The notes under the pieces were generated by a model that was not told where the DNA came from, ran no database searches, and worked only from the letters and a program-made list of their open reading frames with translations. 32,000 nt of DNA. Origin: Candidatus Omnitrophota bacterium. Lineage in GTDB: Bacteria > Omnitrophota > Gorgyraeia > Zapsychrales > JANLHA01. A program made the position numbers and the translations under genes. This document shows positions 29,220 to 29,384 of the stretch, one piece after another (position 1 is the first letter of the stretch; each line of letters begins with the position of its first letter). Location of the stretch: positions 1,890,001 to 1,922,000 of the forward strand of contig OY759724.1 in the NCBI GenBank assembly GCA_963662715.1, written 5' to 3'.

Positions 29220-29384
29220 TCCATGAAAACAGTCATCTGGTCAAGCATAAAATAGAAAGGCCAAATCATCCATTCGCGCTATATTCCCCAAAAGGACTTA
29301 TGCGCACAATAGCGTATTATGACAGGGCGTGCCAATCACTACAACGGCCTTAAATATGCCAGAGTTGTTAACAGCATCACCCAT
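29220..29384 (-). ncRNA. candidate bridge/seek RNA in the 3' non-coding end of the IS
   Basis: An outer stem AAGGCC (29257-62) / GGCCTT (29346-51) and an inner stem CGCTAT (29277-82) / ATAGCG (29309-14) bracket an internal loop. The loop carries ATCATCCAT (29265-73), which equals the predicted circle junction ATCA+TCCAT, and ATCACTACA (29335-43), which equals core plus right target flank. GAGTTGTTA (29362-70) is the reverse complement of the left target flank TAACAACTC (29210-18). Confidence 0.5.

What the first reader, a model, noticed from the sequence alone, without database searches (positions are those of the whole stretch)
29220..29384. The IS non-coding end carries guide-like matches to the attC target and its own circle junction: a candidate bridge/seek RNA
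The 165-nt non-coding end downstream of the transposase stop contains three 9-mers that mirror the recombination substrates. (a) GAGTTGTTA (29362-70) is the reverse complement of the left target flank TAACAACTC (29210-18). (b) ATCACTACA (29335-43) equals the TCA core plus right target flank CTACA (30469-77). (c) ATCATCCAT (29265-73) equals the junction that would form on circularisation: right end ...ATCA joined to left end TCCAT.... Matches (b) and (c) lie on opposite sides of an internal loop closed by AAGGCC/GGCCTT and CGCTAT/ATAGCG stems. That is the architecture described for IS110-family bridge RNAs, where guides lie in internal loops and pair with both strands. In IS1111-type elements the RNA is reported at the 3' end, as seen here. 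Copy 2's flank (TAACAAGTC) has one mismatch to guide (a). This would make the attC specificity RNA-programmed. A fourth guide, for the other donor half, was not found convincingly.
Basis: inference. Interest (0 to 1): 0.8.

Follow-up and report, generated by a model that had tools for sequence, protein, structure and literature searches.

The report
Bridge/seek RNA of attC-targeting IS
The non-coding tail of this insertion sequence encodes a folded guide RNA of the kind described in 2024 (bridge RNA or seekRNA) that reads both the integron attC site it inserts into and the element's own ends; it is a clear but ordinary new example of a known mechanism.

Summary
Jointly they exceed chance: 0 of 5000 shuffles reached all three.

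The element is an IS1111-type IS110-family insertion sequence in an integron attC site of an Omnitrophota chromosome. A second copy sits in the next-but-one attC.

Its 3' non-coding region folds into two internal-loop modules, conserved in 62 distinct homologous elements. 91.8% of pair cells form standard pairs, against 67% in shuffles, and 23 of 26 pairs show compensatory changes.

- **Target loop:** carries matches (a) and (b), which act as the right and left target guides.
- **Donor loop:** carries match (c), which reads the right IS end plus core. It also carries the "missing" fourth guide, ACGCUAUUG at 29307-29315, which reads the left IS end.

Each guide changes with its own flank or end in relatives that have more than 20 different targets.

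This is the known IS1111 seekRNA / bridge RNA. attC-targeting examples (ISKpn4) are already experimentally proven. What is new is the lineage. The transposase is 23% identical to ISKpn4's, yet the element inserts at the same attC position and in the same orientation. No transcript data exist for it.

The parts
29220..30469 (-). IS copy 1 (IS1111-type, IS110 family). It is bounded by the repeated trinucleotide TCA (29217-19 and 30470-72 on the + strand, which is TGA in IS orientation).
   Evidence: An uninterrupted paralogous attC at 30775-30862 defines the empty site.
29385..30392 (-). Transposase, 335 aa (MYYIG...). It has a DEDD RuvC-like N-terminal domain and a Transposase_20 C-terminal domain carrying the G..P....SG motif (GIVPRVHQSG).
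   Evidence: Pfam PF01548 and PF02371. Homology to the IS621 and ISCro4 recombinases of PDB 8WT6 and 9T56.
29247..29384 (-). Predicted long seek/bridge RNA: target-binding module, donor-binding module and a U-rich tail. It starts directly after the stop codon.
   Evidence: Covariance model R1 hit at 29257-29385, 120 bits. Structure.
29325..29382 (-). Target-binding module (about the size of the published ~80-nt short seekRNA). Outer stem GGGUG/CGCCC (29378-82 with 29325-29). Inner stem GCUG/UGGC (29372-75 with 29331-34). Apical hairpin at 29345-29361.
   Evidence: Compensatory changes in all 9 basal-stem pairs and all 5 apical pairs across 62 sequences. RNAalifold predicts the same helices independently.
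29362..29371 (-). It pairs with the top strand (IS orientation) of core plus right flank, GAGTTGTTA.
   Evidence: It changes with the right flank in relatives: a perfect 8-mer at the element's own junction in 12 of 41, against 0.8% for mismatched pairings. These are the most variable columns of the family alignment, 1.8 bits.
29336..29344 (-). It has the same sense as left flank plus core, CTGTAGTGA, so it pairs with the bottom strand.
   Evidence: A perfect 8-mer at the element's own left junction in 14 of 41 relatives, against 0.3% for mismatched pairings. About 22 distinct specificities are represented.
29260..29323 (-). Donor-binding module. Closing stem GUCA/UGGC (29320-23 with 29260-63). 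Apical stem UGCGC/GCGCG (29302-06 with 29275-79). Lineage-specific extension hairpin UCC/GGA (29294-96 with 29285-87).
   Evidence: L083 (UGAC) and L081 (GCCA) keep the closing stem through changes. The extension hairpin shows a change on both sides in 4 of 5 pairs.
29307..29315 (-). Right donor guide, the 'fourth guide' (RNA ACGCUAUUG), on the 5' side of the donor loop. It is complementary to core plus left-end start, TGATAGTAT: 4 contiguous Watson-Crick pairs (CUAU with ATAG), or 8 of 9 positions if G.U/G.T wobble is allowed.
   Evidence: It is not detectable in this sequence alone. It was located by comparison: UACUAU, AUUAU, GUUA, CCAU, CUUAU and CAUACCA each track their own left end. Own-versus-other longest match is 4.0 against 2.9 nt; 0 of 5000 permutations reached the observed mean.
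29266..29274 (-). It has the same sense as right-end terminus plus core, CATGGA-TGA.
   Evidence: It changes with the right end in relatives (ATGGATGA, ATAGATGA, AGAGATGA, AGGGATGC, ATAGAGGA, ATAGAAGA). A perfect own match in 10 of 19, against 0 in mismatched pairings.
29247..29258 (-). U-rich tract (UUUCUAUUUUAU) directly after the closing stem. It is a probable 3' end or terminator of the RNA.
   Evidence: T-rich runs follow the RNA in most relatives. The terminator scan did not call it, so this is an inference.
29220..29244 (-). Right-end terminus: a conserved -35-like TTGACC (29239-44) and the subterminal inverted repeat GTTTTCATGGA (29220-30).
   Evidence: TTGAC is conserved in relatives and lies 17 nt from the left-end TAATAT/TAGTAT in the reconstructed circle junction of L081, L082 and L002b. 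The spacing is 22 nt here.
30393..30469 (-). Left end, TAGTATGAAAACGTGCC..., with the subterminal inverted repeat and a promoter-like ATGAAA-18-TATAAT (30465 to 30436).
   Evidence: 10 of 12 consensus matches.
29205..29219 (+). attC half carrying R'' (GTATAACAAC) plus core TCA. This is the right target flank in IS orientation.
30470..30535 (+). Core TCA plus the rest of the split attC (CTACAGCGGAGCCCC...GCGTTGTCTG). This is the left target flank in IS orientation.
   Evidence: It is 89% identical to the intact attC at 30790-30851.
31530..32000 (-). IS copy 2, cut by the window end. Its RNA region (31567-31695) is identical to copy 1. It sits in another attC (CTCTAACAAG-TCA), with one mismatch to the right target guide.

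Best explanation
The stretch 29247-29384 (minus strand) encodes the bridge RNA, also called the long seekRNA, of an IS1111-type insertion sequence.

**Transcription.** The RNA is made as the 3' tail of the transposase transcript. It could be driven by the promoter-like site in the left end, by the promoter formed at the circle junction, or by both.

**Fold.** It forms two stem-closed internal loops.
- Loop 1, the target-binding loop, presents UUAACAACUC (right target guide, 5' side) and UUGUAGUGA (left target guide, 3' side). These pair with opposite strands of the attC sequence CTGTAG-TGA-GTTGTTA. The attC site is read next to its R'' core (TAACAAC|TCA|CTACAG on the attC top strand).
- Loop 2, the donor-binding loop, presents ACGCUAUUG (right donor guide) and AAUGGAUGA (left donor guide). 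These read the joined IS ends CATGGA-TGA-TAGTATG.

**Reaction.** The DEDD/serine recombinase bound to the RNA exchanges strands at the shared core, (T)G(A). This inserts the circle into attC in one orientation, opposite to the cassette genes, with no target duplication.

**Shown here by computation:** the conserved fold, the four guide positions, and their co-variation with flanks and ends.

**Inferred from published work on ISEc11, ISKpn4, ISPa11 and IS621:** transcription, processing, RNA-protein complex formation and catalysis.
For: **Family.**
- Pfam PF01548 plus PF02371.
- Homology to the IS621 recombinase, including the catalytic-serine motif region.
- Subterminal inverted repeats, a short left end and a long right end.

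**Structure.**
- On a MAFFT alignment of 10 relatives, 95.7% of pair cells are paired. Ten pairs have compensatory changes. 0 of 500 shuffles reached the observed paired fraction or covariation score, and slid controls gave 28-40%.
- RNAalifold finds the same helices on its own.
- Model R1 finds 63 instances in 161 sources. All are on the transposase strand, and only the two IS copies are hit in the window.
- On those instances 91.8% of cells are paired, against 67% in shuffles. 23 of 26 pairs are compensatory.
- There are 200 G.U cells against 23 A.C cells, which points to the sense strand.

**Guides.**
- Joint chance of the three matches in this sequence: 0 of 5000.
- In relatives, own-junction perfect matches are 14 of 41 (left target guide) and 12 of 41 (right target guide). 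Mismatched pairings give 0.3% and 0.8%.
- Left donor guide: 10 of 19 own perfect matches, against 0 in mismatched pairings. Right donor guide: 0 of 5000 permutations reached the observed mean.
- Target-guide columns are the most variable; stems and donor guides are conserved.
- Guide order (top-strand match 5' of bottom-strand match) and location downstream of tnp match the published IS1111 seekRNA (PMC11187229). The strand logic matches the LTG/RTG/LDG/RDG scheme of PMC11208160.

**Activity.** Two copies differ by one base inside the IS and sit in different attC sites. That argues for recent activity.
Against: - There is no transcript, RNA-protein or transposition data for this element or its host.
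- Rfam 15 has no matching family, so assignment to the family rests on my own model and on the literature.
- The right donor guide is weak in this particular copy. It has only 4 contiguous Watson-Crick pairs and carries a substitution and insertion relative to L001.
- The spacing of the circle-junction promoter is 22 nt here, against 17 nt in relatives. Expression from the circle may therefore be poor.
- The exact core (TG, GA or TGA) cannot be fixed from sequence. L002b and L004 have TGC at the right junction.
- The sequences are phylogenetically related, and alignment A5 was fitted to the model. The shuffle statistics therefore overstate independence.
Confidence: 0.9

Rival explanations
1. 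One internal loop, closed by AAGGCC/GGCCUU and CGCUAU/AUAGCG, carries a target guide (b) opposite a donor guide (c), so target and donor recognition are mixed within a single loop.
For: Both stems can form in this one sequence. The inner four pairs of AAGGCC/GGCCUU stay pairable in most close relatives (pairs 51-54 with 149-152).
Against: - Across 10 relatives only 74.6% of cells pair, and no measure exceeds the shuffles.
- L083 breaks GGCC/UGAC but keeps the alternative GUCA/UGAC.
- The CGCUAU arm varies with the left end as a guide does, and pair 92-133 fails in 9 of 10 sequences.
- The competing two-loop fold has 23 of 26 compensatory pairs in 62 sequences.
Confidence: 0.03
2. Recognition happens at the DNA level. 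The folded single-stranded IS end pairs with the target, as in IS200/IS605 elements, and no RNA is involved.
For: Sequence analysis alone cannot distinguish RNA from single-stranded DNA of the same strand. attC sites do function as folded single strands.
Against: - The helices contain many conserved G.U pairs, which are stable in RNA. There are 200 G.U cells against 23 A.C cells.
- For four IS1111 members and IS621, the RNA was shown to co-purify with the transposase, to act in trans and to be reprogrammable (PMC11187229, PMC11208160).
- The transposase is homologous to the IS621 recombinase, whose structure was solved with its RNA.
Confidence: 0.03
3. The matches are passive relics or coincidences. 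Fragments of earlier target sites, or of the inverted repeats, sit in an ordinary 3' UTR or terminator region.
For: Each single match is short (8-9 nt). The left-target-guide match alone has p of about 0.04.
Against: - Joint chance is 0 of 5000.
- The same four positions of a conserved fold match each element's own flanks and ends in relatives with more than 20 unrelated targets.
Confidence: 0.01

Closest known systems
IS1111-family seekRNA / long seekRNA (ISEc11, ISPa11, ISKpn4, ISPst6; Siddiquee et al. 2024, PMC11187229)
   Same: - The RNA is encoded downstream of tnp, starting just after the stop codon.
- An ~80-nt module carries two target matches, with the top-strand match 5' of the bottom-strand match.
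- A longer ~140-nt form is plausible.
- The element has subterminal inverted repeats, makes no target duplication, and has a -35 element in the right end for a junction promoter.
   Different: Nothing has been tested experimentally here. The published work did not assign a role to the extra part of the long seekRNA. Here that part is resolved, by comparison, as a donor-binding loop with two guides.
IS1111-attC group (ISKpn4, ISPa21, ISPst6, ISPa25)
   Same: - It targets the R''-proximal end of integron attC sites.
- By my reading of an ISKpn4 copy in a class 1 integron (L161), the insertion point lies at the same offset from TAACAA (TAACAAx-TC).
- The orientation is the same, with tnp opposite to the cassette genes.
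- The target loop has the same architecture, with right target guide AUAACAAUCA.
   Different: - The transposase is only 23% identical to TnpKpn4. It matches TnpPa25 only locally, 31% over 113 aa.
- No DNA similarity to any plasmid record was found.
- The host is an Omnitrophota chromosome, not a Pseudomonas or clinical integron.
- The guide matches are longer (9 + 8 nt).
- The ISKpn4 guide assignment is mine, made from sequence. The published figure could not be read.
IS621 / IS110-group bridge RNA (Durrant et al. 2024, PMC11208160; Hiraizumi et al. 2024, PMC11208158)
   Same: - Two internal loops, one target-binding and one donor-binding.
[quoted passage not shown]
- The recombinase is homologous.
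- The right donor guide pairs weakly or discontinuously.
   Different: - The RNA is in the right end, not the left end.
- The order of guides within each loop is reversed: right guide 5', left guide 3'.
- The subterminal repeats are long.
- The core is (T)G(A) rather than CT.

Membership tests
IS110 family, IS1111 group (insertion sequence) | DEDD (RuvC-like) N-terminal domain plus Transposase_20 C-terminal domain with the G..P....S/TG motif | tested here: met
   PF01548 (E=1.2e-15) and PF02371 (E=2.8e-27). GIVPRVHQSG aligns with GLTPRRYESG of IS621.
IS110 family, IS1111 group (insertion sequence) | Subterminal inverted repeats, a short left end and a long right-end non-coding region downstream of tnp | tested here: met
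   Left end 77 nt, right-end non-coding region 165 nt. TATGAAAAC / GTTTTCAT repeats lie 3-5 nt inside the ends.
IS110 family, IS1111 group (insertion sequence) | Site- and orientation-specific insertion without target duplication beyond a shared core | tested here: met
   Two copies sit in two attC sites at the same position and in the same orientation. An intact paralogous attC shows the empty site. Only TCA is shared.
Bridge RNA / seekRNA | A conserved secondary structure with internal loops in the long non-coding end, on the transposase-sense strand | tested here: met
   23 of 26 pairs are compensatory, and all 63 hits are on the tnp strand.
Bridge RNA / seekRNA | Two loop segments that match opposite strands of the target, overlap at the core, and co-vary with the target across relatives | tested here: met
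Bridge RNA / seekRNA | A second loop whose two segments match the joined IS ends (the donor) | tested here: met
   The left donor guide is clear. The right donor guide is supported by family co-variation but is only 4 contiguous pairs in this copy.
Bridge RNA / seekRNA | The RNA is expressed, binds the transposase and is required for circle formation and insertion; retargeting follows guide changes | not testable with these tools
   No expression or biochemical data exist for this element. These properties are shown only for ISEc11, ISKpn4, ISPst6, ISPa11, ISEc21 and IS621 in the literature.
IS1111-attC group (as a phylogenetic group: ISKpn4, ISPa21, ISPst6 and relatives) | A transposase closely related to the group (members are >=74% identical to each other; ISPa25 is 46%) | tested here: not met
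   23% identity to TnpKpn4 and only local similarity to TnpPa25. The element works like the group (same target and position) but is not a member of that clade.
Integron attC site (the target) | Imperfect inverted repeat with R'' ..AAC and R' GTT.. at cassette ends, following each ORF, with R' of one site complementary to R'' of the next | tested here: met
   Six sites lie after consecutive + strand ORFs. GTTGTCTG (30528) is complementary to CAGACAAC (30777). No integrase gene was found next to the array, and no attC covariance model was available.

The most novel reading that the evidence does not exclude
An IS1111 lineage very distant from the ISKpn4/ISPa25 groups (23% transposase identity) has independently come to target the same nucleotide position and orientation at the R'' end of integron attC sites. 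It is spread in Omnitrophota and other uncultured bacteria. This happened either by convergent drift of its target loop or by exchange of the guide module between IS lineages. If so, attC ends are a recurrent 'safe harbour' for RNA-guided IS elements, and these elements shape chromosomal integron arrays well outside Proteobacteria.
Probability: 0.5. Interest if true: 0.4.

Novelty: new member of a known kind. Interest (0 to 1): 0.3.

Why it matters
- It confirms from raw sequence that RNA-programmed recombination also explains attC targeting in a deep-branching, uncultured lineage.
- It supplies a natural series of more than 20 retargeted guide pairs on one scaffold, plus a covariance model of 127 positions. 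These could help annotate IS1111-type bridge RNAs, which Rfam 15 does not detect here.
- It assigns a function (donor-binding loop) to the 3' half of the long seekRNA in this clade.
- For integron biology, it shows IS interruption of attC sites in an Omnitrophota cassette array that carries defence-type cassettes.
- None of this changes the known mechanism.

Tried and rejected
- **Rfam.** Searches at the gathering threshold and at E<=10 gave only chance snoRNA-level hits.
- **Exact-protein contig look-ups.** Two look-ups, aimed at finding further copies in the host genome, returned nothing.
- **blastn of the non-coding region against plasmids.** No match.
- **Tetu & Holmes 2008 (PMC2447020).** Not held, so the published attC insertion point could not be quoted. 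I derived it from an ISKpn4 copy instead.
- **Strict attC inverted-repeat scan.** My own scan found nothing. The sites were then read directly from the intergenic sequences.
- **First regex extraction.** It picked a second IS copy in L002 by mistake. This was corrected.
- **First target and donor reconstruction.** It was off by one base and was redone.
- **Single-sequence minimum-free-energy fold.** It is only marginally better than shuffles (z = -1.86) and mixes true and spurious pairs, so I did not rely on it.
Tested and rejected.
- **Reading (c) as circle-junction-specific.** Rejected because the ninth base is not kept in relatives.

Full report
**1. Observation**

- GAGTTGTTA (29362-70) is the reverse complement of TAACAACTC (29210-18).
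- ATCACTACA occurs at 29335-43 and at 30469-77.
- ATCATCCAT is at 29265-73.
- The four stem arms exist.
- Copy 2 (31520-32000, 99.6% identical) has the flank TAACAAGTC.

The stretch 29220-29384 is exactly the non-coding region between the stop codon of a minus-strand transposase gene (29385-30392) and the IS end.

I tested the matches against dinucleotide shuffles of the non-coding region. The substrates were the reconstructed empty target GGGGCTCCGCTGTAG-TGA-GTTGTTATACAA and the circle junction ...TTTTCATGGA-TGA-TAGTATGAAAAC... The three matches have p = 0.005, 0.04 and 0.012, and none of 5000 shuffles reached all three. A fourth, left-end guide cannot be seen in this sequence alone (best match 5 nt, p = 0.9).

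**2. Context**

The transposase has Pfam DEDD_Tnp_IS110 and Transposase_20 domains. It aligns with the IS621 and ISCro4 recombinases of PDB 8WT6 and 9T56, including the GLTPRRYESG / GIVPRVHQSG serine-motif region.

In IS orientation the element reads:

CCGCTGTAG-TGA-[TAGTATGAAAACGTGCC ... tnp ... non-coding region ... CTGTTTTCATGGA]-TGA-GTTGTTATAC

The left end is short (77 nt) and the right end long (165 nt). Subterminal inverted repeats are present, and only the trinucleotide is repeated. This is the IS1111-group layout.

The surrounding 26.6-32 kb is an integron-type cassette array on the + strand. attC-like sites follow each ORF (26684, 27740, 28520, 29205, 30775, 31516). The R' of one site is complementary to the R'' of the next. 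Both IS copies split an attC just after R'' (TAACAAC|TCA| and TAACAAG|TCA|), with tnp opposite to the cassette genes.

All named homologues of the window's RecO are from Candidatus Omnitrophota.

**3. Relatives**

A protein search gave about 35 homologues at 60-82% identity and many more below that. I fetched 160 loci from genome and metagenome collections.

Reading the regions downstream of tnp showed one common plan. The relatives at 64-67% identity also sit in attC-like sequences (CGCTGxAxTGA | xTTGTTA). More distant ones sit in unrelated targets.

**4. Structure**

I wrote a structure by hand on a MAFFT alignment of 10 relatives (A3). It has five parts:
- an outer stem;
- an inner stem;
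- an apical hairpin of loop 1;
- a closing stem of loop 2;
- an apical stem of loop 2 with a lineage-specific extension hairpin.

| Test | Result |
|---|---|
| My structure on A3 (10 sequences) | 95.7% of cells paired; 10 pairs with changes on both sides; 0 of 500 shuffles reached the paired fraction or covariation score; slid controls 28-40% |
| RNAalifold on A3, run blind | Same helices returned |
| Model R1 over 161 sources | 63 matches, all on the tnp strand; only the two IS copies hit in the window |
| My structure on the 62 distinct matches (A5) | 91.8% paired against 67% shuffled; 23 of 26 pairs compensatory |
| Wobble asymmetry on A5 | 200 G.U cells against 23 A.C cells, pointing to the sense strand as the folding strand |

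Two caveats apply. A5 is fitted to the model, and the sequences are related. For that reason the MAFFT and RNAalifold results matter as independent support.

**5. Guides**

In RNA sense, loop 1 carries two guides.
- UUAACAACUC (29371-62) is on the 5' side. It is complementary to the top strand of core plus right flank.
- UUGUAGUGA (29344-36) is on the 3' side. It is identical to left flank plus core, so it pairs with the bottom strand.

Loop 2 carries two more.
- ACGCUAUUG (29315-07) is on the 5' side.
- AAUGGAUGA (29274-66) is on the 3' side. It is identical to the right-end terminus plus core.

Co-variation with each element's own flank or end, across relatives:

| Guide | Own element | Mismatched pairings |
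|---|---|---|
| Left target guide (8-mer, perfect) | 14 of 41 (12 more with one mismatch) | 0.3% |
| Right target guide (8-mer, perfect) | 12 of 41 | 0.8% |
| Left donor guide (perfect) | 10 of 19 | 0 |
| Right donor guide (longest match) | mean 4.0 nt | mean 2.9 nt; 0 of 5000 permutations reached the observed mean |

- Most of the perfect or one-mismatch target-guide matches abut the IS junction. About 22 distinct specificities are represented.
- The left donor guide follows the right end: ATGGATGA, ATAGATGA, AGAGATGA, AGGGATGC, ATAGAGGA, ATAGAAGA.
- The 5' side of loop 2 follows the first bases of the left end:

  | Guide segment | Left-end start |
  |---|---|
  | UACUAU / ACUAU | TAGTA |
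  | AUUAU | TAATA |
  | GUUA | TAAC |
  | CCAU | (A)TGG |
  | CUUAU | TAAG |
  | CAUACCA | TGGTATG |

- In this copy the fourth guide has only four contiguous Watson-Crick pairs (CUAU with ATAG). Eight of nine positions can pair if wobble is allowed.
- Target-guide columns are the most variable in the family alignment (1.8 bits). Stems and donor guides are conserved.

**6.

- Matches (b) and (c) are not partners in one loop. The pairs are (a) with (b), and the fourth guide with (c).
- GGCC at 29346-49 belongs to the apical hairpin of loop 1. UGGC at 29260-63 pairs with GUCA at 29320-23. L083 (UGAC) and L081 (GCCA) support this pairing.
- The CGCUAU arm is the fourth guide.
- The ninth base of (c) matches the circle junction only here. 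The ninth base of (b) is the terminal base of the IS.

**7. Comparison with what is known**

Siddiquee et al. (PMC11187229) showed several things for IS1111-family elements, including the attC-targeting ISKpn4 and ISPst6.
- An RNA encoded downstream of tnp co-purifies with the transposase and is essential.
- It carries a top-strand match 5' of a bottom-strand match.
- It is reprogrammable.
- A 70-100-nt form and a 145-170-nt form exist.

Durrant et al. (PMC11208160) defined the LTG/RTG/LDG/RDG logic for IS621. They predicted bridge RNAs in the right end of 93% of IS1111 elements, and noted discontinuous pairing between the RDG and the right donor.

The present RNA fits all of this. The guide order within loops is reversed relative to IS621, as reported for IS1111.

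I fetched an ISKpn4 copy in a class 1 integron (L161). R1 aligns weakly to its non-coding region (12.9 bits) but shows the same architecture. The stems are GCAGCGG/CCGCUGC, with loop segments AUAACAAUCA and UUUGAACGC. Its junctions are CTAACAA-TTC(A)-[IS]-TTC(A)-AGCCG. This places the exchange at the same offset from TAACAA and in the same orientation as here.

Even so, the two transposases are only 23% identical. ISPa25 matches only locally. The best plasmid-borne relatives are 38% identical, and the non-coding region has no plasmid DNA match.

The element therefore works like the IS1111-attC group but is not a member of that clade.

**8. Mechanism, and what is inferred**

Shown here: the fold, the guide positions and their co-variation.

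Inferred:
- **Transcription.** Candidate promoters are a site in the left end, ATGAAA-18-TATAAT, and a circle-junction promoter. The junction promoter would use the right-end TTGACC with the left-end TAGTAT. The spacing is 17 nt in L081, L082 and L002b but 22 nt here.
- **3' end.** It probably lies at the U-tract 29247-58.
- **Later steps.** Processing, RNA-protein assembly and strand exchange at the core.

The core is ambiguous: TGA is shared here, but L002b and L004 have TGC at the right junction.

**9. Verdict**

This is a new member of a known kind. Interest is modest: the mechanism is already established, including for attC targeting. The new elements are the distant lineage and host, the resolved donor loop, and a useful comparative data set.

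Noticed in passing
window 26684-32000: An integron-type cassette array lies on the + strand, with six attC-like sites. 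The cassettes encode defence-type proteins: HEPN RiboL-PSP (26763-27710), Abi_alpha (27818-28519) and VapB/VapC (30925-31514). No integrase gene lies next to the array; the left neighbours are YceI, a 2-hydroxyacid dehydrogenase and RecO. The host appears to be an Omnitrophota bacterium.
   Followed up: partly
window 25421-26125: A 700-nt AT-rich non-coding stretch lies at the left edge of the cassette array. It contains two copies of CTAATGTTATACG (containing GTTATAC, which fits the R' consensus). It could be an attI remnant or degenerate attC sites.
   Followed up: no
window 29239-29244 with 30464-30469: The reconstructed circle-junction promoter has 22 nt between TTGACC and TAGTAT in this element. 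The spacing is 17 nt in relatives L081, L082 and L002b. A separate promoter-like site, ATGAAA-18-TATAAT, lies inside the left end (30465 to 30436).
   Followed up: partly
L037 2344-2453, L038 244-346, L039 2352-2460, L041 2355-2461, L058 2334-2436, L065 712-813, L103 2357-2463: In seven distant relatives (about 37-39% identity) the covariance-model match lies upstream of the transposase gene rather than downstream. These are weak hits (25-34 bits). They recall the exceptions with an upstream non-coding region noted in PMC11187229.
   Followed up: no
L005 ~400-430 and ~1650-1690: The left side of this copy is an inverted copy of its own right end plus flank (GGGACATCCATGAAAAGC against GCTTTTCATGGATGTCCC), which gives palindromic flanks. 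Its left target guide does not match the left flank. This may be an aberrant or rearranged copy.
   Followed up: no
L002 529-663 and 3506-3638: One Omnitrophota contig carries two related IS copies. Their right target guides differ (UUAACAAGUC and UUAACAAAGC). Each is within 1-2 mismatches of its own right flank. This looks like natural micro-retargeting between attC variants.
   Followed up: partly
L081 1230-1245: The left target guide carries a 5-nt tandem duplication (UUGGAUUGGAUUGA).
   Followed up: no
L001 3530-3730: This copy has about 150 extra nt between the donor loop and the right end. Its right junction lacks the TGA core (CATGGA-C-GCCTGGTTAA). It is probably a decayed copy.
   Followed up: no
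window 29266-29274 and 29307-29315: RNAalifold also pairs the two donor guides with each other (CUAU with AUGG/AUAG). This follows from the IS ends being inverted repeats, so the free RNA may keep the donor loop partly closed.
   Followed up: no
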